Virus record (IMG/VR): IMGVR_UViG_3300008117_000001
Source: a virus
Length of the DNA: 64,000 nucleotides
Strand: one strand, 5' to 3'
Positions 6,105-64,000 of this stretch are shown piece by piece (within the stretch, counting starts at the first letter, position 1; every line of letters starts with the position of its first letter). The notes under the pieces were generated by a model. It searched no databases. It saw only the letters and a list, made by a program, of their open reading frames with translations, and was not told where the DNA came from. The translations under genes and the position numbers were made by a program.

Positions 6105-6757
6105 AAAAAGAATACAAAAAGCTAGAAGAAGATGACATAGAATTCCTTACTGATCTTCTTTTTGATACGTCTTTATCTGTTAGCGAAATCGCAAAGCAAT
6201 TAAATGTCTCTATAGCTGAAGTTAATAAAAAAATCAATTCTCTTGGTTTATCTTGGTTAAAAAACTCTAGAAAAAAAATGTCTAGAGGCCAAACAGCTCT
6301 GACTTTAATTATGAAAAAGCTCCTTCCTGGAGAAGAAATTATTAACGAATATCATATTGGTGACAAGTTAAAGTTTGATGTATTTTGTGCTAAGTATAAA
6401 ATAGCGGCAGAGTATCATGGCAGACAGCACTTTTACTACACTAGTAGATTTTTTGAGTCAAAGTATGATTTTGAACAAGCTAAAAAAAGAGATGAAAAAA
6501 AAGTCCAGTATTGCCTAGATAATGGAATAGCTCTAATAGTTTTTAGGTACAATGATCTGCTAACTGAGCAGGCTGTATATGATAGAATGTTAACAGCAAT
6601 AAGAGAAACTGATCATGTTTCAAAGCCAGTTCACAAGACTTCCATAAAGTCTAATCCAGCTTATCAAGAAGCAAAAAAGAAAAATTCTGAGTACAAGAAA
6701 AAACTATACAGAAAAATAAAAGGTTCAAAAATTGATGATCGCAGAAGAAGTACCTGA
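6101..6757 (+). CDS. HTH plus DUF559/Vsr-like endonuclease
   Basis: LSVSEIAKQLNVS HTH; KFDVF, AEYHGRQH, RDEKKVQYC. Confidence 0.75.
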   Translation: MKKEYKKLEEDDIEFLTDLLFDTSLSVSEIAKQLNVSIAEVNKKINSLGLSWLKNSRKKMSRGQTALTLIMKKLLPGEEIINEYHIGDKLKFDVFCAKYKIAAEYHGRQHFYYTSRFFESKYDFEQAKKRDEKKVQYCLDNGIALIVFRYNDLLTEQAVYDRMLTAIRETDHVSKPVHKTSIKSNPAYQEAKKKNSEYKKKLYRKIKGSKIDDRRRST

Positions 6758-8195
6758 TCTAGAAAAGTCACCGATAGAGTATCATGCGTTCTCATTATGC
6801 CTTAAGCAGCCTGGGGCTGTACAATTCTTTAATGACAATCTTCCTAGTGACATAGTAGGAATTATTCATGGAGAAAAAGGCGTACATGAGTTTTATGAAG
6901 CGTTGCTGGGATTCTATCGTGCCACGGCATTAGATGTAGTAGATCCTGTAGCATTTAAAGTTTGGCTTCAGTCAGAAACAGATATTTATAATGCTCTTGG
7001 TGGCGACACCGGACTATCAATCATGCTTGACTTTGTTCTTGGTATTGATGTTGGAAGTAAGGAGTCTGTTTTAGAGCTAATTAAGCACAAAGCAAATAAG
7101 CGAAAACAGATAAATTATCTACAAGAACTACAGATACTAATAAACAAAAAGGGCCTTAAGTCTGAAGAAGATACCTCAAGAATATCAGAGTTAACTTCAA
7201 AGATTAAAGACTTGGAAAACTCTATAAAGTACAATCCATTTGATAAGCTAACCACTGCTTCAGATATTATGTCTAGGGCGGATGATCTGCTCGATATACC
7301 AAGCTTTATGCCAACGCAATTTAAGGCTCTAAATAAAGCAATGGGTTATACTGAAGATGGTGGATTTTTTAAGGGAGCTGTTCATGCAATCATTGCTCCA
7401 TCAGGAAAAGGCAAAAGTACATTTGCAAAGTGTTTGGCCAATCATTGGTTAGACACTGGTCATAGAGTTCTGTATGTAAATTTCGAAGAAGCTGTTGGCC
7501 ACTGGGAAAGAATATTGATGACCCAGATTATAGGTAAGAATGTATATTCTGAAGCGGAAAAGTGGTCAGAAAAAGAAAAGCTAGATTACATATCTATTTT
7601 TAAGTCTAGATTAGAAAAATGGGGTGATCGCCTTATGGTTAGGCATGACCCTGATACCCCATATTTTGAGGATCTGGAATTTTGGCTTAGAGATTTAATA
7701 GGCCATGCAGACAAGGTTCCTGATGTTTTGATCATCGACACAATACAGTCGATGTTTACCAGAGGCAATGGAAAAGGCAAGCCACGATGGGGCGAATTTG
7801 AAGAGATGATGGTTAAGCTGGAAAAGCTAGCTAGAGATATGAATTGCGCTCTAATAATAACTGCGCAAGAAAACGCCAATCGAATGAAAGAAAGAAGAGA
7901 GGTTGTCCAGCAATCTGACACTGGTGGCTCTCTTGCTATTCAGCAAAAGTGTGCAGTAACTATCTTTATCACCGAAAAACGTTTGGCGACCCAAGATGAA
8001 ACCGAAGATGAGAATATCATGCAGCTGCAGATACCAAAGAATAGAATAACTGGTTCTGCTTTTCTTTATGATCCACCATTGGTTCGTTATAATGATGAAA
8101 AGAAAATATATGAAGACTATCAAGTTGTTGATGAAAATTCATATACTGAAAGTACAGATTTGCAAGATCTGCTTAATGGAGAAGGATTTGATTGA
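6732..8195 (+). CDS. DnaB-like SF4 replicative helicase
   Basis: Walker A APSGKGKST, YVNFEE, Walker B VLIIDTIQ, ITAQEN, QIPKNR. Confidence 0.88.
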   Translation: MMIAEEVPDLEKSPIEYHAFSLCLKQPGAVQFFNDNLPSDIVGIIHGEKGVHEFYEALLGFYRATALDVVDPVAFKVWLQSETDIYNALGGDTGLSIMLDFVLGIDVGSKESVLELIKHKANKRKQINYLQELQILINKKGLKSEEDTSRISELTSKIKDLENSIKYNPFDKLTTASDIMSRADDLLDIPSFMPTQFKALNKAMGYTEDGGFFKGAVHAIIAPSGKGKSTFAKCLANHWLDTGHRVLYVNFEEAVGHWERILMTQIIGKNVYSEAEKWSEKEKLDYISIFKSRLEKWGDRLMVRHDPDTPYFEDLEFWLRDLIGHADKVPDVLIIDTIQSMFTRGNGKGKPRWGEFEEMMVKLEKLARDMNCALIITAQENANRMKERREVVQQSDTGGSLAIQQKCAVTIFITEKRLATQDETEDENIMQLQIPKNRITGSAFLYDPPLVRYNDEKKIYEDYQVVDENSYTESTDLQDLLNGEGFD

Positions 8196-8980
8196 TGTTA
8201 GATTTAACTACTGATTCAATAAAAGACTTTCAAACTTGTGAAAGATTATATGATTATAGGTATCAGGAAAAACTTCCAGAGACAATTTACTCTAGAGATC
8301 TTTATACATTGAAGTTTGAAAATAGTTTAAAGAGTATAATAAATTTTTTTTGGTTTAAAAAACAAGCGGGGATTACACCTTCTTATTCTTCTCTTCTAAA
8401 TAGATGGGAAAAAATCTGGTTTCCAAAAGATACAACCCATTATGATCTAATGACAGAGCAGCATGAAAGTGCATACGGCAATATGTCGAGCTTAACTACA
8501 CAGGCAGCAAATACTCTTCTTAATTTTCACGACACATATAGTCAACTAGACGCAATTCCAATTTCTATTGGGGATGAATACGTTGTGACTGTAGATAAAA
8601 CGGTGAGAATACATGATAAATTTGATTTAATATACAGACATGCTGGACAAAATTATGTTGTTAAATTCATTTTTAATTACAAAAACAGTTATAGGCAGAT
8701 CTATCAAGTTGATTTTTCTTCAATGTATTTAGCTTTTAAAAATCTTCATTCTGAAAAGCTGTCATCAACAAAGTTTGGTTATGTAGATTTAATGTCTACT
8801 AATTTAAAATTTAATGAATACGAAATAACTGAACAGGATATTGAGTCAATTAATTATTGGTGCGCTACAATAGAAGACAAAGATATTTTTGCACCTAGAA
8901 GAGGTTTAACGTATTATTGCAAAAAGTGCCCATTTGATACACCTTGTTCAAAATGGTCTTTCCCAAGTCAAGTAAAGTAA
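8192..8980 (+). CDS. PD-(D/E)XK RecB/Cas4-like protein, probably catalytically degenerate
   Basis: N-terminal FQTCERLYDYRY and C-terminal CKKCPFDTPC; the D..DxK core is replaced by KFDLI..VVKF. Confidence 0.65.
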   Translation: MMLDLTTDSIKDFQTCERLYDYRYQEKLPETIYSRDLYTLKFENSLKSIINFFWFKKQAGITPSYSSLLNRWEKIWFPKDTTHYDLMTEQHESAYGNMSSLTTQAANTLLNFHDTYSQLDAIPISIGDEYVVTVDKTVRIHDKFDLIYRHAGQNYVVKFIFNYKNSYRQIYQVDFSSMYLAFKNLHSEKLSSTKFGYVDLMSTNLKFNEYEITEQDIESINYWCATIEDKDIFAPRRGLTYYCKKCPFDTPCSKWSFPSQVK

Positions 8981-9001
8981 AGGTAAAGTGAGTATTGTAT
9001 T

Positions 9002-9679
9002 ATGGCTAAAAATTTCTTAGATGAAATTCTAAAAGAAGATAAAAAAAGTGTTTTTGAAACAGAAAACGACGTATTGAATCAACTGATAGATGAGATAAAT
9101 CTAATTACTGATGACGCAATAGTTTCTTTTGTTAGGTCTGTTTTATTGAAAGCAGAAATTTTTTGGGACATTCCTTCTAGTTTTTCTGGAAAGTATCATC
9201 CAGCAGATGAGCATGGTCATGGTGGCAATGTCCTGCACACAAAAAGAGTAGTCAGAGTTGCTTGCATTTTAGCTGATTCTTATTCTTTATCAGATGATGA
9301 AAGAAATGTAATCATAGCTGCATGCTTGCTTCATGATGTAACTAAGGGTATTCCGGATTTTAATGATCCATCTTCTTTTCACTATGACCCAATGCACCCT
9401 TATACGGTGGCTAAATTTGTGCAGAACTGCCAGATGTATGATAAAGAATATGGAAATGATTCCCAGTCAACAAGTCTGTTTATAGCAGAAGAGTCTATAC
9501 AGGCGATACTAAGACTAGTTAGGTGCCACCTAGGGCCATGGTCTCCGGTTCCAGAAACATATCCAATTACGTACCTAGATTATATTGTGCACATTGCTGA
9601 TAATATAGCAAGTAAGATCCATACAGTTATAGAAGATAGTGAGCTTATAAATGAAAAATGGAGAAAGCAAGCTGACTAA
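9002..9679 (+). CDS. HD-domain phosphohydrolase
   Basis: KYHP..GGNVLHTKRV, CLLHDVTK, CHLGPW, VHIAD. Confidence 0.85.
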   Translation: MAKNFLDEILKEDKKSVFETENDVLNQLIDEINLITDDAIVSFVRSVLLKAEIFWDIPSSFSGKYHPADEHGHGGNVLHTKRVVRVACILADSYSLSDDERNVIIAACLLHDVTKGIPDFNDPSSFHYDPMHPYTVAKFVQNCQMYDKEYGNDSQSTSLFIAEESIQAILRLVRCHLGPWSPVPETYPITYLDYIVHIADNIASKIHTVIEDSELINEKWRKQAD

Positions 9680-9833
9680 AGATCAGCGTATTGTAAATAG
9701 AACGTTTATTTTAAATCATTTAGATGATATAATCAAAGAGTCAGTATATTACAGAACGAATGCAGACAACATCTCGGAAGAGGTTGTTGCAAAAATTAAT
9801 ATTTATAGCGATACCAAGGTGAAGATACTGTGA
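9651..9833 (+). CDS. hypothetical protein
   Basis: 60 aa ORF filling the gap, GTGA overlap with primase. Confidence 0.5.
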   Translation: MKNGESKLTKDQRIVNRTFILNHLDDIIKESVYYRTNADNISEEVVAKINIYSDTKVKIL

Positions 9834-60093: not shown

Positions 60094-60326
60094 GGTTTCT
60101 CCTGTTCATTGGTTTCTATTGCTTTCTCAAAATGATCTACAATCTCTTTGAGATAATTAACTGATATTACTACAGCTTTTTCTGGACCATGTTCCATAAT
60201 ATTATGGTTGATCATGGAAACAAATAAATTGTAGATACCAGATTTAAGATCCATAATTATATCAGTAGGAATATAGTCTGGTTGTTCATCTATGAGAGAA
60301 TATTTCTCATCTTCATTATTTTGCAT
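60090..60326 (-). CDS. hypothetical protein
   Basis: 78 aa, coupled to neighbours. Confidence 0.65.
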   Translation of the reverse strand: MQNNEDEKYSLIDEQPDYIPTDIIMDLKSGIYNLFVSMINHNIMEHGPEKAVVISVNYLKEIVDHFEKAIETNEQEKP

Positions 60327-60622
60327 TATTTAACTCTCTTTGATAGTGCGGTGTCAATCATCTGACCTAAAGCTTTAATATCATTATAACCTTTATCGTA
60401 TAATATGGAAATGATAGGTTTAGGGTCAATATGATTGTATGTAATTAATTGAAGATTAAAAACATCGTTGAGAGTATAAATTCTATAATTGTTTAAATCT
60501 CTACGAGGAGCAGGATACTTTTGGTTTTTTTCTCTGTTTGATACGGTGAGCGTAGTAACATTGAGAATTTGAGCAACCTCAGATCTTGTAAAGATTGGTT
60601 CTGAAGTGTATGTTTTAGTCAA
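60326..60622 (-). CDS. MerR-type HTH protein
   Basis: FTRSEVAQILNVTTLTVSNREK..RRDLNNYRIYT. Confidence 0.85.
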   Translation of the reverse strand: MTKTYTSEPIFTRSEVAQILNVTTLTVSNREKNQKYPAPRRDLNNYRIYTLNDVFNLQLITYNHIDPKPIISILYDKGYNDIKALGQMIDTALSKRVK

Positions 60623-60686: not shown

Positions 60687-61826
60687 TCAAATGAGAGAAG
60701 AAAGAGAAACAAAAACGTCAGAAATAACTTTATCTATTGAAGAATGATTCTGAAAAGTTGTTTCAGAGTTATTAATAAAGTTCTTAACGGCTTCATCAAA
60801 ATACAAAGGTGGAGACTGAAGAGAACGAAGATACTTGTAGTATCTATTCTCATTATAGTCATATAGATTTCCAGAATCTTCGGACTCTTCATGGGAAAGG
60901 CGAACATCATCAGGATCAATTCCGTAATGGTCAAAATAATCAAGAATTCTTGATGTGCCAATTTCTTGAATAGTTGAATGAACTCTTTCAGAGGTACAAG
61001 GATTCGGCCAAGGAATGGAAGATATATCATTAAGAGATATTTTTTCCCAAGCAGAAAAGACATGAGATATAAAAGAATAATCTATATAAAAAGTAAAAGG
61101 ACTAATCGGTGAAGCGAGAGGATAAAATGGGTTAGCCGAAAATTCAGAGCGACGGTTAATTTGAAAAATGCATTCAGCAATGTTCATTGTAAGATCAAGA
61201 TTTGATCCAGAGTTCCATATCCAATTATATGCTGCGTTAACAACGCCAGAAACGCTATTATCATAGCGATTTATTTCTTCCATGCTATCAAACATAGGAT
61301 TGCACAAAGTGGCATTATTATAAAAATTAAGAAGTGGTGGCAAATAAAGTCTTGAAGAAGAAAAGTCAGCACCCTGTAAAGAATGAGACATGAAGTACAT
61401 AGCTATTTGATTGGGATAATGTACTCCATTAAAAACGGAATATGAAACAAAATAAACAGTCCAAGGAATTGGAAGTCTGTATATATAATTTTTAGAATTA
61501 TCATAATCAATATTGTCAATAACAGCAGGAATTACTTGTATGTTATTATACGTAGGAGGACGTTCAAAGATAACAACTTTGTTATCAATATGAATTAATC
61601 CCGGAGGAAGTATTCCGGTATCAAAATGAAGTAAAGAGTTATCATTTGATTTGTTTAGATAGTTGATAACAGGAGATATTAATTCGGGGGAAATATCTAC
61701 AAAAAGAGAATTAACAGACAAACTATTGCGATAACAATCGTAGCCTATAGTATCTTCATAGTTGGGGTGATTAAAAGAAAAGCTTCTATAAGAAGAAGAA
61801 ATGTAATTAAAGTTTGACATATTCAT
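60687..61826 (-). CDS. prokaryotic E2 family D-like protein 1
   Basis: LPPGLI, FERPP, LPIPWTVYF, LYLPPLLNFYNNATLC, WNSGSNLDL. Confidence 0.65.
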   Translation of the reverse strand: MNMSNFNYISSSYRSFSFNHPNYEDTIGYDCYRNSLSVNSLFVDISPELISPVINYLNKSNDNSLLHFDTGILPPGLIHIDNKVVIFERPPTYNNIQVIPAVIDNIDYDNSKNYIYRLPIPWTVYFVSYSVFNGVHYPNQIAMYFMSHSLQGADFSSSRLYLPPLLNFYNNATLCNPMFDSMEEINRYDNSVSGVVNAAYNWIWNSGSNLDLTMNIAECIFQINRRSEFSANPFYPLASPISPFTFYIDYSFISHVFSAWEKISLNDISSIPWPNPCTSERVHSTIQEIGTSRILDYFDHYGIDPDDVRLSHEESEDSGNLYDYNENRYYKYLRSLQSPPLYFDEAVKNFINNSETTFQNHSSIDKVISDVFVSLSSLI

Positions 61827-63435
61827 CCTTAGAAACTACATCATACAATGCGGTTGATTGACAAGGGAAATAAAAATCGTTTTCAATATAAACTTTTAAC
61901 ATCTCCAAATAAAGATCATGAAGAGTCATATCGGAAGAAGAAGGATTAATAAAATAGATTTTAGAATCTTCAAAATTATAAATAGGAATAGAAGAATTTT
62001 GAAGAGAATCTAAAACAGACTTATTAATATTAATAGGAATATCTCCATTACTTAAGTGGTTGTTAAGATAGTTCATAGGACTGTAAGCAACTGGAGAATT
62101 GACTAAAATAATATTAGTAGTACTGGAGTCATATTCCGCATAAGACATGTTTTTAGCGGAAATAGAACTGATTAAATTACGAATGTAAGAACTATCTAGG
62201 GTACGATAATTTCTATGTTGAGACGTAATAGACTCAAAAGAAATAGGCTTAAAAGCAGAAGAATTGTGATGATTTGATGCAAATATAGAATTGTCTTTAT
62301 TCTTATCTATATCTTGATACATAAAATCTATTTCTTCAAGAAGAGCTAAAACCTCAGAAAGTGTAAAAGTAGAAATTATAGACAATATTGCATAATGAGA
62401 ATAATCATGAGGCAGATTAGCAAAAAACTTAGAAGGAGCAGATTTATATACGGAATATATCTTAGAGATTTTATTTAACCCTGCTTTTTCCATAGTTTCT
62501 TCATCTGGAGAAAAAAGTTTAATTAGATTAGGAATAGAAGAAAGAAATTTAGGATTAGGATTTTTAGCGTTAAGTTGATGATAAAATTTAGAAGTATAAA
62601 GATATAGCCAAGCATTAGTAAGATCTGCGTTCCAAGAACCAGCAAAAAACTCGTTGATCATATAGGCATACAATGAAGCAGGAGTTGTATTGGCGTTTTC
62701 CAATGGAAGGTCAGAGAGACTGCCGGAATAGCATATTCTTGAATCAGGATAAGTATTTGGAAGATATGTCGGATAGTAGTTATCGGACATTGAAGTCAAA
62801 GACTTATGAGAAAAATACATGTACTGAGATCCACCAGGATAATTTGGATTAAAGACATAGATTGTCCAAGGTATCCAAACAGTTTTTGGTGGAAGCTTTT
62901 TTTTATACGCAGAAGCACCACCGGGCTTATAATCTACTATGGCTTGAAAAGGAGGACGCTCAACAAATATAGTGCCGTCAGAAGAAATGTATCTTGTTGC
63001 TATTGGATAAGCAGATTTAGGAATAAAAGATTGAAAAGACTCGTTATAATATTTAGTTAAATCTTCGGTTGGAATTGAACACAACCGAGAAATCTGAGCT
63101 TGTACTAAAGAAGGAGGAGAAAGAGGTGTTGAATTATTATCCTTTTTTAGTTTATTAAATTTAACTTTATCTAAAGGATAAGCAGGAGAGAATATGTTAT
63201 CTACTTCTTCAAGCAGATGAGACTGAGTTATGTACTGTAACTTAAAAGATTCTACAGTACAATAAACTGCAGCTCTATAACCAGTAATATTAGCAGCATG
63301 AACGTATGCATAGGAGGAGCTAATACTGGCACTAGAAGAACTAGGATTATTATTATAATGAATCTCGTAAGAAGAGATATCTTCAGAATTAACTACTGAA
63401 TAAAAAGAACTGCAAGATTGAGATTGGAAAGACAT
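61807..63435 (-). CDS. prokaryotic E2 family D-like protein 2
   Basis: VERPP, WIPWTIYVF, YPTYLPNTYPDSRIC, FFAGSWNADL. Confidence 0.62.
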   Translation of the reverse strand: MSFQSQSCSSFYSVVNSEDISSYEIHYNNNPSSSSASISSSYAYVHAANITGYRAAVYCTVESFKLQYITQSHLLEEVDNIFSPAYPLDKVKFNKLKKDNNSTPLSPPSLVQAQISRLCSIPTEDLTKYYNESFQSFIPKSAYPIATRYISSDGTIFVERPPFQAIVDYKPGGASAYKKKLPPKTVWIPWTIYVFNPNYPGGSQYMYFSHKSLTSMSDNYYPTYLPNTYPDSRICYSGSLSDLPLENANTTPASLYAYMINEFFAGSWNADLTNAWLYLYTSKFYHQLNAKNPNPKFLSSIPNLIKLFSPDEETMEKAGLNKISKIYSVYKSAPSKFFANLPHDYSHYAILSIISTFTLSEVLALLEEIDFMYQDIDKNKDNSIFASNHHNSSAFKPISFESITSQHRNYRTLDSSYIRNLISSISAKNMSYAEYDSSTTNIILVNSPVAYSPMNYLNNHLSNGDIPININKSVLDSLQNSSIPIYNFEDSKIYFINPSSSDMTLHDLYLEMLKVYIENDFYFPCQSTALYDVVSKDEYVKL

Positions 63436-63436
63436 T

Positions 63437-64000
63437 TTAACCTGCCAATAGTGAAGTAATATAACTTTCTTTTTCTACATCTTTGTTTGAATCAGAAATT
63501 TCACTTTTTTCATTTTCAGAAATAGAATGAGAAGTAGATAGATAAGGATCAATATATTGGGTGTATATTGAAGTAGCTTCTTGTAGACACTCATCATAAG
63601 AAAGAGTTGATGGATAATTTAAAGTATTAATAGACTGATTAAGTGTATCATTATTAATAATAAATACATGATTACCTGCAGCTGTTAATGAATGAGTTAA
63701 GGAAAAGTTAATAGAAGAGGAAGAGTGAGAAGAAGCTATAGTATTTGAAAGTATCTCAGTCTTGATAGGAGAATAAAGTGGGCAAGAAGAAAAGGAACTA
63801 AAACTGCCACAAGAAGTAAAAGATTGAGTAGCAAGTTTTGGATGGGAGCAAGAATGAAAATCGCTAATAGTATTAGCATATTTATAGTGAGAAGATATAA
63901 CTACAGGAACTGAATTATCTGAAGATCTATGTGAATAATATTCACAAAGTGGAACATCTTGAGCAATAGTAGTGTAGTTAAAAAATGTAATTGTAGGAAA
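63437..64000 (-). CDS. Ser/Cys-rich hypothetical protein, C-terminal part (truncated by window end)
   Basis: Own translation: 188 open codons FPTITFFNY..LCEYY..HSCSHP..SCG..SCPLY..ITSLLAG-stop, ending 1 nt before the next ATG. Confidence 0.75.
   Translation of the reverse strand, partial: FPTITFFNYTTIAQDVPLCEYYSHRSSDNSVPVVISSHYKYANTISDFHSCSHPKLATQSFTSCGSFSSFSSCPLYSPIKTEILSNTIASSHSSSSINFSLTHSLTAAGNHVFIINNDTLNQSINTLNYPSTLSYDECLQEATSIYTQYIDPYLSTSHSISENEKSEISDSNKDVEKESYITSLLAG

What the first reader, a model, noticed from the sequence alone, without database searches (positions are those of the whole stretch)
60687..63435. Tandem pair of Prok-E2_D-like (ubiquitin-conjugation E2 fold) genes in a phage
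Seen: two adjacent paralogues share ERPP, PWT[VI]Y[FV], [LY]xPxL[LP]N[FT]Yxx[AS]x[LI]C and [WF]xxSxNxDL, and both keep the Cys. Known: this matches the Prok-E2_D / PRTRC protein B pattern (LyxaPfxNvxxxGxiC), normally encoded with a ThiF/E1, a JAB peptidase and a ubiquitin-like protein. Inference: a phage-borne conjugation system or an anti-defence mimic. The duplication and long C-terminal extensions are atypical. No E1, JAB or Ubl is recognisable inside the window, and partners could lie beyond nt 64000.
Basis: partly seen in the sequence, partly recalled or inferred. Interest (0 to 1): 0.75.

Follow-up and report, generated by a model that had tools for sequence, protein, structure and literature searches.

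The report
Two extra phage E2-like enzymes
A large uncultured freshwater phage carries two adjacent, very divergent copies of a ubiquitin-conjugating (E2-like) enzyme just downstream of its own ubiquitin-like tagging genes, which suggests that the phage tags proteins through several specialised E2s.

Summary
Two overlapping minus-strand genes (379 aa "S", 542 aa "L") are real paralogues (hhalign 96%, E 3e-9).

Neither matches Pfam directly, but four results link them to Prok-E2_D (PF14460):
- 11 of 30 shorter relatives hit it.
- The genes at the same position in two distant relatives pass its cut-off.
- An NCBI-annotated plasmid "E2 ligase family D" protein aligns with the same Asn...Cys columns.
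- Both AlphaFold models match only E2/UEV folds, though weakly (Z about 5).

In the S family Asn167 is invariant (179/179) and Cys175 nearly so (178/179). In the L family both are invariant (18/18). The Asn-x4-Gly-x2-Cys spacing matches my recollection of UbcH5.

The predicted partners exist 2-10 kb beyond the window end. All 40 related viral contigs keep one gene order wherever sequence is available: E2-like/zinc-ribbon, JAB, ThiF E1, Ubl ending in Gly, AAA+, unknowns, L, S.

Most likely S and L are further Cys-dependent E2s of a phage Ubl-conjugation system, with their extensions choosing targets. Activity and targets are untested.

This scan found the same arrangement before on other DNA (e1-5803799, e1-5799903, e1-5799919) and the upstream cassette in this genome (e1-5812665).

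Novelty: a new variant of a known kind.

The parts
60687..61826 (-). Gene S, 379 aa: an N-terminal small beta/alpha domain (about residues 1-61), an E2-like core and a C-terminal helical extension. The true start may be Met3 at 61820, because AAGGA lies 5 nt upstream of that ATG.
   Evidence: ORF list. The family of 597 cluster representatives has no annotation. AlphaFold model has pLDDT 83. There are 12 synonymous and 0 non-synonymous differences from the sister strain L001. Start context.
61008..61637 (-). E2/UBC-like core of S (residues 64-273).
   Evidence: VIA-align wide search: top row is UBE2S 1zdn_A with Z 5.0, rmsd 4.1 A and 127 of 151 residues aligned. About 20 of the 50 rows are E2s over model residues 64-273. 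The nearest named ESM Atlas clusters are viral, with PF14460 on 14-15% of members, score 0.93.
61302..61304 (-). Codon of Cys175 of S, the putative catalytic cysteine.
   Evidence: Cys in 178 of 179 relatives and Ser in one. It falls on the same column as the Cys of a PGAP-annotated Prok-E2_D protein. Codon checked.
61326..61328 (-). Codon of Asn167 of S, 8 residues before the Cys. It is the equivalent of the Asn of the E2 'HPN' motif.
   Evidence: Asn in 179 of 179 relatives, with Gly/Ser/Ala at Asn+5.
61191..61217 (-). WNSGSNLDL loop of S (residues 204-212), between the two long helices that follow the Cys.
   Evidence: Trp204, Asn209 and Asp211 are invariant. The loop lies between helices 192-204 and 214-223 in the model.
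61807..63435 (-). Gene L, 542 aa: an N-terminal domain (about 1-135), an E2-like core, a helical domain and a C-terminal alpha/beta domain.
   Evidence: ORF list. Family of 17 clusters. Model pLDDT 80. dN/dS against L001 is 0.26.
62617..63030 (-). E2/UBC-like core of L (residues 136-273).
   Evidence: In the VIA-align second look all 50 rows are E2, UEV or UFC1 chains, with Z 3.8-5.0 and rmsd 3.2-3.7 A over about 100 residues for most rows. hhalign to short Prok-E2_D-like relatives gives 98.3%, E 1.3e-14.
62731..62733 (-). Codon of Cys235 of L, the putative catalytic cysteine.
   Evidence: Invariant in 18 of 18. Aligned with the Cys of the short forms and of the annotated plasmid Prok-E2_D protein. 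Codon checked.
62755..62757 (-). Codon of Asn227 of L, 8 residues before the Cys.
   Evidence: Invariant in 18 of 18. Checked.
62620..62646 (-). FAGSWNADL loop of L (residues 264-272).
   Evidence: Phe264, Ala265, Gly266, Trp268, Asn269 and Asp271 are invariant. Aligned to WNSGFNxDL of the short forms.
61807..61826 (-). 20-nt overlap of the L stop and the S start, suggesting translational coupling.
   Evidence: L and S abut or overlap in nearly all related loci.
63437..64000 (-). 3' part of the upstream neighbour gene ('p368'). It is a fast-evolving Ser-rich protein that precedes L in most loci, and it is not E2-like.
   Evidence: hhalign to the E2-like profile gives 0.1%.
60326..60622 (-). 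Downstream neighbour, a MerR-like helix-turn-helix protein. It follows S in 39 of the 40 viral loci (no match in L038).
   Evidence: Weak MerR_1 Pfam match, E 0.003. Synteny.

Best explanation
S and L are two anciently duplicated, highly divergent members of the prokaryotic E2-like (Prok-E2_D) superfamily. They are encoded at the end of a conserved roughly 12-kb module of a lineage of jumbo phages (contigs up to about 270 kb). The module's order is: E2-like/zinc-ribbon protein, JAB peptidase, ThiF-type E1, 84-aa Ubl ending in Gly, Cdc48-like AAA+ ATPase, two to four unknown proteins, L, S.

Proposed mechanism, in steps:
1. The E1 adenylates the Ubl's C-terminal Gly. The E1 has a conserved Cys202 that could carry the Ubl as a thioester.
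2. The Ubl passes to the conserved Cys of an E2-like protein (Cys175 in S, Cys235 in L).
3. The invariant Asn 8 residues upstream of the Cys and the invariant NxD loop after the next long helix assist aminolysis.
4. The unrelated N- and C-terminal domains of S and L, and the zinc-ribbon tail of the third E2-like protein, bring different targets to the active site, so no separate E3 is needed.

What is shown: paralogy, homology to Prok-E2_D, an E2-like predicted fold, residue conservation, synteny and purifying selection.

What is inferred: thioester formation, use of the phage's own Ubl and E1, and target selection by the extensions.
For: Paralogy.

Link to Prok-E2_D:
- 11 of 30 short relatives hit PF14460.
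- The genes at the same position in the L039 and L040 records score 36.5 and 28.8 bits against a cut-off of 25.
- A PGAP-annotated family D E2 aligns at 85.8% with matching Asn...Cys and FNSD motifs.
- ESM Atlas gives the same lead.

Fold:
- Two independent models have best matches that are E2/UEV/UFC1 chains. S matches 1zdn_A at Z 5.0 over 127 of 151 residues. L matches 6s96_B at Z 5.0, and all 50 rows are E2-type.
- The order of secondary structure around the Cys is the UBC order: beta meander, loop carrying Asn and Cys, short helix, long helix, conserved loop, helix. The UBC order is from my own knowledge.

Active-site pattern:
- S family: Asn167 in 179 of 179, Cys175 in 178 of 179, small residue at Asn+5.
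- L family: invariant.
- The Asn-to-Cys spacing of 8 with Gly at +5 equals HPNINSNGSIC of UbcH5. That sequence is recalled from memory and was not tested here.

Context:
- The gene order is the same in 40 of 40 viral loci wherever flank is available, all on one strand.
- ThiF scores 46.8 bits and Prok-JAB 24.4 bits. The best NCBIfam hits are PRTRC_ThiF and PRTRC_A.
- The Ubl ends in EFHRRAGEKG in 21 of 23 distinct sequences, and the E1 has a conserved Cys202.

Selection: S has 12 synonymous and 0 non-synonymous differences from a sister strain. L has dN/dS 0.26.

Ancient duplication: S-type and L-type copies form separate clades across loci.
Against: - There is no direct Pfam, NCBIfam, PADLOC or PHROG hit for S or L, and no PDB sequence hit.
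- Foldseek finds nothing significant in the PDB.
- The structural Z-scores of 4-5 lie in the range that the tool itself calls possibly 'a common arrangement'.
- I could not inspect coordinates, so the placement of the Cys at the E2 active site rests on motif spacing, profile alignment and secondary-structure order, not on a superposition.
- The His of the HPN motif is absent (Leu or Pro instead).
- S and L lie 5-9 kb from the E1 and Ubl genes, with an AAA+ gene and four unknown genes in between, so functional coupling is inferred from synteny alone.
- No biochemical data exist for any Prok-E2_D protein in the papers I could search.
- The RNA evidence is only short contigs in metatranscriptome libraries, which may contain DNA.
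Confidence: 0.55

Rival explanations
1. S and L are non-catalytic E2-fold proteins, like UEV/Mms2 or RWD proteins. They would act as adaptors, binding the Ubl, the E1 or the true E2 (the zinc-ribbon protein next to JAB) and steering chain type or target choice, without carrying the Ubl themselves.
For: UEV (TSG101) and RWD-like chains (Knl1, BRISC) appear among the fold matches at the same Z as true E2s. A separate, far better conserved E2-like gene sits directly beside JAB and E1. S and L evolve fast, as binding modules often do.
Against: Cys is kept in 178 of 179 S relatives and in all L relatives. The Asn 8 residues upstream and the NxD loop are also invariant. Such conservation is not expected in a pseudo-enzyme. 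The only replacement of the Cys is Ser, which is itself a working nucleophile in Bub E2s (PMC11601596).
Confidence: 0.13
2. S and L are counter-defence proteins. As E2 mimics they would intercept or misdirect host Ubl-based immunity (Bil, type II CBASS Cap2, Bub), for example by discharging the host Ubl or binding the host E1.
For: The bacterial Ubl pathways characterised in the papers I read (type II CBASS, Bil) act in anti-phage defence, and Bub operons are suggested to from their genomic context. Fast evolution of L and of the extensions would fit an arms race.
Against: Across 40 loci the pair always travels with the phage's own E1, Ubl, JAB and AAA+ genes, on one strand in a fixed order. 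That points to one system. There is no PADLOC match to host E2 families. The host is unknown, so no cognate host system can be named.
Confidence: 0.12
3. The conserved Cys/Asn/Asp set on a UBC-like scaffold performs another chemistry, for example a peptidase, deamidase or transferase acting on the Ubl or on another substrate.
For: Structural similarity to E2s is weak, Z about 5. The HPN His is missing. The family has extra invariant residues (ERPP, PxPWxxY) that I do not know from classical E2s.
Against: ERPP, PxPW and the Asn...Cys pattern are shared with proteins that pass the Prok-E2_D model. The genomic company is E1, JAB and Ubl. No fold match to Cys peptidases or transferases appeared.
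Confidence: 0.1
4. The resemblance to E2s is spurious. S and L form a phage-specific family of another fold and function, and merely sit near the Ubl cassette.
For: No direct hit of S or L in any curated library. Foldseek is not significant.
Against: Several independent lines converge: Pfam-passing genes at the same position in relatives, profile alignments to an annotated family D protein, two models whose weak matches are almost only E2s, the Atlas lead, and negative controls that give nothing.
Confidence: 0.05

Closest known systems
Prok-E2_D (Pfam PF14460; NCBI name 'prokaryotic E2 ligase family D protein'), e.g. WP_250017474.1 of Chroococcidiopsis plasmid pA
   Same: The core motifs are shared in the same order: [FY]xxPP, PxP-aromatic, LYxxPLPN-x4-G-x-IC, and FWSSxFNSD. 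The genes at the same position in relatives pass the Pfam cut-off. The predicted fold is UBC-like. The genes are associated with ThiF and JAB genes.
   Different: S and L themselves fall below detection by the Pfam model. They carry added domains: S has about 60 aa at the N-terminus and about 105 aa at the C-terminus (beyond residue 273), and L has about 135 aa and about 270 aa. They occur as a fixed tandem pair plus a third distant E2-like gene. They are phage-encoded rather than on plasmids or ICEs.
PRTRC cassette (ParB-related, ThiF-related; NCBIfam TIGR03735-03737), and operon type 6d of Iyer, Burroughs and Aravind 2006 (PMC1779556)
   Same: The module contains a Ubl, a JAB peptidase, a short ThiF-type E1 and an E2-like protein without the HPN His. 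The phage E1 and JAB hit PRTRC_ThiF and PRTRC_A best. Three of 30 short relatives hit PRTRC_B weakly.
   Different: All scores are far below the NCBIfam cut-offs. No ParB-like gene was seen in the module. The conserved His after the Cys that is described for 6d E2-like proteins is absent from S and L. The phage module adds an AAA+ ATPase and three E2-like genes.
Bacterial Ubl-conjugation defence systems: Bil, type II CBASS Cap2/Cap3, and Bub (PMC11601596, PMC10557695, PMC10097602)
   Same: The E1, E2, Ubl and peptidase logic is the same. In Cap2 the E2 acts without a classical E3. A CBASS E2 (8hsb_B) is among the fold matches to S, at Z 3.4.
   Different: Those systems are host-encoded and act against phages, with one E2 per operon. 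Only the ThiF gene gave a weak PADLOC 'E1-E2' match, and S and L gave none. Bub uses Ser/Tyr oxyesters, whereas S and L keep Cys.
Eukaryotic UBC E2 enzymes (e.g. UBE2S 1zdn, UbcH5, Ubc9)
   Same: They are the best structural matches, covering nearly the whole UBC domain. The Asn-x4-Gly-x2-Cys spacing matches my recollection. A conserved Asn/Asp loop lies between the two helices after the Cys.
   Different: Sequence identity is about 10%. The His of HPN is replaced by Leu or Pro. The beta sheet has extra strands. Large appended domains are present. There is no Pfam UQ_con match.
Bacillus phage vB_BceM_WH1 gp214-gp216 (LC597490)
   Same: This cultured jumbo phage has an E2-like gene (241 aa, PFSNCDNSYIC and FNSDL), a JAB gene and a ThiF gene in a row. 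A 241-aa viral model that may be gp214 is the second-best BFVD match to S, E 2.8e-7; the identification rests on length and accession series only.
   Different: It has a single short E2-like gene placed before JAB. I recognised no tandem pair, no Ubl and no AAA+ gene nearby. Sequence similarity to S and L is marginal.

Membership tests
Prok-E2_D (PF14460) | Direct match of the protein to the Pfam model at or above the gathering score (25 bits) | tested here: not met
   S and L give no Pfam family at E<=1. The model finds nothing in the sister contig G002 at E<=10.
Prok-E2_D (PF14460) | Homology to proteins that do pass the model (transitive or profile-profile) | tested here: met
   The genes at the same position in the L039 and L040 records score 36.5 and 28.8 bits. 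11 of 30 short relatives hit, with best E 6.7e-6. hhalign of short forms against L gives 98.3%. A PGAP-annotated family D protein against the short-form profile gives 85.8%, E 5.4e-6. Unrelated neighbour genes give 0.0-0.4%.
Prok-E2_D (PF14460) | Conserved cysteine in the LyxaPxxN-x4-G-x-[IL]-C motif | tested here: met
   S has YLPPLLNFYNNATLC and L has LPNTYPDSRIC. In the S family Cys is in 178 of 179 and Asn in 179 of 179. Both are invariant in the L family. The columns are the same as LYAAPLPNVMGEGSIC of the annotated plasmid protein.
Prok-E2_D (PF14460) | UBC-like alpha/beta fold | tested here: inconclusive
   AlphaFold models have pLDDT 83 and 80. The best VIA-align rows are E2s (Z 5.0, 127 of 151 residues for S), and all 50 rows for L are E2/UEV/UFC1. 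However, Z is below 8 and Foldseek is not significant. No coordinates were available for a residue-level check.
Prok-E2_D (PF14460) | Gene neighbourhood with E1 (ThiF), JAB and a Ubl | tested here: met
   ThiF, JAB and a Gly-ended Ubl lie 4-9 kb upstream on the same strand. The order is conserved in all 40 viral loci wherever flank is available. They are not inside the window.
PRTRC system protein B (TIGR03737) | Match at the NCBIfam cut-off (131 bits) | tested here: not met
   S and L give no hit at E<=1. Three of 30 short relatives hit at E>=3.7e-4, about 18 bits.
E2-like protein of operon type 6d (Iyer et al. 2006) | Absolutely conserved His C-terminal to the conserved Cys | tested here: not met
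   There is no invariant His in the S family. In the L family the only nearly invariant His is residue 347, 112 residues after the Cys and outside the core. The feature is as described in PMC1779556.
Classical UBC E2 (Pfam UQ_con) | HPN triad with His, and a match to the UQ_con model | tested here: not met
   The motif reads LLN in S and LPN in L. There is no Pfam hit.
Active Ubl-conjugating enzyme (functional class) | Formation of a Ubl~Cys thioester and transfer to a target | not testable with these tools
This needs biochemistry.

The most novel reading that the evidence does not exclude
A whole lineage of freshwater jumbo phages runs its own miniature ubiquitin system. One E1 and one Ubl would feed three structurally different E2-like enzymes (S, L and a zinc-ribbon-tailed one), each acting as its own substrate receptor. 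The embedded Cdc48-like AAA+ ATPase would read or remodel the tagged proteins. If so, E2 diversification for target choice, a hallmark of eukaryotic ubiquitin signalling, arose independently in a virus of bacteria. It might be used to tag host defence or host/phage structural proteins during infection.
Probability: 0.35. Interest if true: 0.8.

Novelty: new variant of a known kind. Interest (0 to 1): 0.62.

Why it matters
In the papers I could search, Ubl conjugation in the bacterial world is described for cells, plasmids and anti-phage defence (CBASS, Bil, Bub), not as a phage-owned system.

Here a large, recurrent phage lineage keeps a complete E1/Ubl/JAB set together with three E2-like genes. 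The S profile alone finds 597 cluster representatives. Two of the three E2-like genes are invisible to the current Pfam model.

If S and L are active, several things follow:
- A virus of bacteria would have diversified its E2s for target choice.
- The phage side of the Ubl arms race would become open to experiment.
- Two new subfamilies would be available to extend the Prok-E2_D model.
- The appended domains would be candidates for new substrate-recognition modules.

A cultured Bacillus jumbo phage with a simpler version offers a tractable model.

Tried and rejected
**Library scans of S and L**
- Direct scans of Pfam, PHROGs, NCBIfam and PADLOC gave no hit.

**Structure and PDB searches**
- Profile searches of the PDB sequences with A1, A2 and A3 gave only chance rows: antibodies, cytochrome c3 and zinc-finger/RING rows for A3.
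- Foldseek against the PDB was not significant for either model.

**Sequence searches in phage records**
- blastn and tblastn of S, L, the 462-aa protein and a short form against 50,697 phage records found no match.
- Only the ThiF gene found one cultured phage.
- The nearest held virus record, G001, has no match, but it is a fragment.

**Tools unavailable or exhausted**
Synteny was obtained from IMG/VR loci instead.

**Leads that gave nothing**
- ESM Atlas gave nothing for the C-terminal half of L.
- The hypothesis that p368, p213 or p180 are further E2-like copies is rejected: hhalign gives 0.0-0.4%.
- The link between the 462-aa protein and the S/L family stays weak: 37.6% and 52.8% against the S-family (A1) and short-form (A4) profiles, and none against A2.

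**RNA evidence**
- Short contigs from three metatranscriptome libraries of two studies cover parts of S and L.
- These are contigs, and such libraries may hold DNA, so I do not count this as proof of transcription. Parts without cover mean nothing.

**Literature**
- Searches for 'Prok-E2' and 'PRTRC' found no functional study.


Full report
**What is there**

Two ORFs lie on the minus strand: 60687..61826 (379 aa, here "S") and 61807..63435 (542 aa, "L"). They overlap by 20 nt. A good ribosome-binding site (AAGGA) sits 5 nt before the second ATG of S, so S may start at Met3. Upstream of L, one base after a stop codon, lies the 3' part of another gene (63437..64000). Downstream of S come a MerR-like gene, a 78-aa ORF, an SSB gene and a UDG-family gene.

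The window belongs to a large phage. It encodes a DnaE-type polymerase, a DnaB-like helicase, a collagen-repeat fibre and a halogenase cassette. The nearest records are IMG/VR contigs classed as 28-37% complete at 59-78 kb.

Yes. The motifs ERPP, PWT[VI]Y[FV] and L[LP]N[FT]Yxx[AS]x[LI]C occur in both proteins.

The paralogy is significant:
- BLASTP gives E 1e-3.
- hhalign of the two families gives 96%, E 3e-9.
- hhalign of short relatives against the L family gives 98.3%, E 1.3e-14 over 154 columns. That stretch includes the Cys and the later NxDL motif.
- Three unrelated neighbouring genes run through the same comparison give 0.0-0.4%.

**The families**

S has 38 relatives in the 90%-clustered collection. 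A profile of them finds 597 cluster representatives at E<=1e-3, none with a name. L has 17 relatives and evolves faster.

Conservation across 179 S-type sequences:
- Invariant: Pro91, Pro121, Trp122, Tyr125, Asn167 and Trp204. Glu88 is in 177, and Asn209 and Asp211 in 178 with one gap each.
- Cys175 is Cys in 178 and Ser in one.
- The residue at Asn+5 is Gly, Ser or Ala.

The L family keeps the equivalent Asn227, Cys235, Asn269 and Asp271 in all 18 sequences.

Compared with a sister strain (L001), S shows 12 synonymous and no non-synonymous changes. L has dN/dS 0.26. Both are therefore real coding genes under purifying selection.

**Are they E2-like?**

Direct library scans say nothing, and PDB sequence searches find nothing. 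Five independent routes nevertheless lead to Prok-E2_D (PF14460).

1. The S profile finds many shorter proteins of about 260-300 aa. Of 30 scanned, 11 hit PF14460 (best E 6.7e-6) and 3 hit PRTRC_B weakly.
2. In the two most distant related contigs the genes occupying the positions of L and S are such short forms. The Pfam model passes its 25-bit cut-off on one gene in each contig, at 36.5 and 28.8 bits. All of these copies align with S and L through ERPP, PxPW, LPN...C and NxDL.
3. A tblastn from one of these genes reached a cyanobacterial plasmid gene that NCBI names "prokaryotic E2 ligase family D protein".
   - It aligns to the short-form profile at 85.8%, E 5.4e-6 over 184 columns.
   - Its LYAAPLPNVMGEGSIC and FWSSPFNSD fall on the family's Asn...Cys and NxD columns.
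   - The weaker alignments to the S and L profiles place the same residues together.
4. The ESM Atlas puts the S core next to viral clusters in which 14-15% of members carry PF14460, at score 0.93. This is a lead, not a test.
5. The AlphaFold models give structural support.
   - The models have pLDDT 83 and 80.
   - Foldseek finds nothing significant in the PDB.
   - The Foldseek-independent VIA-align search ranks UBE2S first for S, with Z 5.0, rmsd 4.1 A and 127 of 151 residues aligned. About 20 E2s are among its 50 rows, all over residues 64-273.
   - For L, all 50 re-aligned rows are E2, UEV or UFC1 chains over residues 136-273, with Z 3.8-5.0.

These Z values are low, and the tool warns that such values can reflect a common arrangement. 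Taken alone, the fold evidence is inconclusive.

The order of elements around the Cys is the UBC order: a beta meander, an extended loop carrying Asn and Cys, a short helix, a long helix, a conserved loop and another helix. From memory, the spacing Asn-x4-Gly-x2-Cys equals HPNINSNGSIC of UbcH5, and the NxD loop sits where Asn114/Asp117 do. I could not superpose coordinates to confirm either point.

**Context**

In the near-identical contig L001/L042 the gene order, all on one strand, is as follows:

| Gene | Features |
|---|---|
| 462-aa protein | Extremely conserved N-terminal half (YHVNLPNIN...GWICLY) and a CxxC zinc-ribbon tail |
| 566-aa JAB protein | Prok-JAB 24.4 bits, HSHP...S..D motif |
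| 269-aa ThiF E1 | 46.8 bits; best NCBIfam hit is PRTRC_ThiF; conserved Cys202 |
| 84-aa protein (Ubl) | Ends in EFHRRAGEKG |
| 534-aa AAA+ ATPase | Cdc48/PAN-like |
| Four unknown proteins | 213, 128, 180 and 368 aa |
| L, then S | The pair studied here |

The same order is found in all 40 related IMG/VR loci wherever the flank is long enough. Those loci span 28-100% identity to S and contigs of up to 268 kb. None of the partner genes lies inside the window.

The 462-aa protein is probably a third, very distant relative of the same fold. hhalign gives 37.6% and 52.8% in collinear alignments up to the LPN motif. This remains weak.

A FastTree of the core (200 columns, midpoint root, not further tested) separates S-type and L-type copies into two clades across loci. 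The duplication therefore predates the radiation of this phage group.

**How it most likely works**

The E1 activates the Gly-ended Ubl. S and L then receive it on their conserved Cys. The invariant Asn and the NxD loop support transfer. The unrelated appended domains select targets, so each E2 would be its own receptor.

The appended domains are:
- S: a small N-terminal beta/alpha domain and a helical tail.
- L: a 135-aa N-terminal domain, a helical domain and an alpha/beta domain.

Only the sequence-level and context-level statements are shown. All the chemistry is inferred.

The rivals, listed with evidence in their own section, are:
- non-catalytic UEV-like adaptors;
- E2 mimics aimed at host Ubl-based defence;
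- a different Cys-dependent chemistry;
- a spurious resemblance.

The near-absolute conservation of Cys, Asn and Asp argues against pseudo-enzymes. The fixed synteny with the phage's own E1 and Ubl argues against a purely host-directed mimic.

**Comparison with what is known**

- **Prok-E2_D and PRTRC.** The closest family is Prok-E2_D, and the closest described system is the PRTRC / type 6d operon of Iyer, Burroughs and Aravind 2006. S and L fail the Pfam and NCBIfam thresholds, lack the His after the Cys described for 6d, carry large extra domains and come as a fixed pair.
- **Defence systems.** Bil, type II CBASS and Bub share the E1/E2/Ubl/peptidase logic but are host defence systems.
- **Phage literature.** I found no paper on a phage-owned system of this kind in the searchable library. 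That library is incomplete.
- **A cultured phage.** Bacillus jumbo phage vB_BceM_WH1 has a simpler E2-like, JAB, ThiF row. BFVD also lists an Acinetobacter phage ME3 protein as a structural relative of S.

**Earlier notes of this scan**

After I had found the cassette, the notebook of the scan showed three things:
- The upstream cassette of this genome had been followed up (e1-5812665).
- The same pair had been analysed on another, roughly 194-kb lake phage with the same conclusion (e1-5803799).
- Two more first-reader notes exist on other DNA (e1-5799903, e1-5799919).

My results agree with these and add the following:
- the Pfam-passing genes at the same position in relatives;
- the alignment to an annotated family D protein;
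- the 179-sequence conservation counts;
- the tree;
- the selection figures;
- the cultured-phage analogue.

**Occurrence**

The same DNA is present in freshwater and lake metagenome runs of 2019, 2020 and 2024 from several studies. Short contigs in three metatranscriptome libraries cover parts of S and L, which is only a weak hint of expression.

**Verdict**

Function remains inferred.

The pair is a new variant of a known kind: divergent, domain-extended, tandemly duplicated Prok-E2_D-like genes inside a phage-owned Ubl module.

Noticed in passing
L047 (Bacillus phage vB_BceM_WH1, LC597490) 6719-9813: A cultured 230-kb Bacillus phage has gp214 (241 aa, PFSNCDNSYIC and FNSDL, weak hit to the short-form profile), gp215 (JAB motif) and gp216 (ThiF) in a row, followed by a NADAR protein. 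This is a compact phage E2-like/JAB/E1 set that could serve as a laboratory model.
   Followed up: partly
L039 9854-12521; L040 9770-11400: The most distant relatives carry three (L039) or two (L040) tandem short E2-like genes of 258-316 aa in place of L and S. One gene in each record passes the PF14460 cut-off.
   Followed up: partly
L042 10699-12087 (-), about 8.7-10.1 kb beyond the window end: The 462-aa gene before JAB has a very conserved N-terminal half (49-79% identity among the 120 listed of 463 clusters) with YHVNLPNIN...GWICLY. Its tail has repeated CxxC pairs that give weak RING-like rows in a PDB profile search. It is possibly an E2 fused to zinc-ribbon or RING-like modules.
   Followed up: partly
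L001 3539-3793: The 84-aa Ubl candidate ends in EFHRRAGEKG in 21 of 23 distinct sequences. Two relatives have two extra residues after the Gly, which would need trimming.
   Followed up: partly
L001 5537-6561: Two unknown proteins (213 and 128 aa) directly after the AAA+ ATPase are conserved in every locus that reaches them. They have no family match and are not E2-like.
   Followed up: partly
alignment A1, columns about 430-470 (C-terminal part of S relatives): Many S-type relatives carry an acidic, Cys-rich insert (for example CCEDC...C.C.CH) that looks like a metal-binding site. The window's S lacks it.
   Followed up: no
P0013 (S-family member): One family member has Ser instead of the conserved Cys (LLSNP). 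Bub E2s use a Ser nucleophile, so this need not be an inactive copy.
   Followed up: no
window 60687-63435 in public runs: The stretch is held whole in lake and freshwater metagenome runs of 2019, 2020 and 2024. It is also held in several runs labelled 'fungus metagenome', which is an odd label for this DNA.
   Followed up: no
window 61807-61826: S probably starts at its third codon (ATG at 61820), 5 nt after an AAGGA that lies inside the end of L. The overlap with L would then be 14 nt.
   Followed up: no
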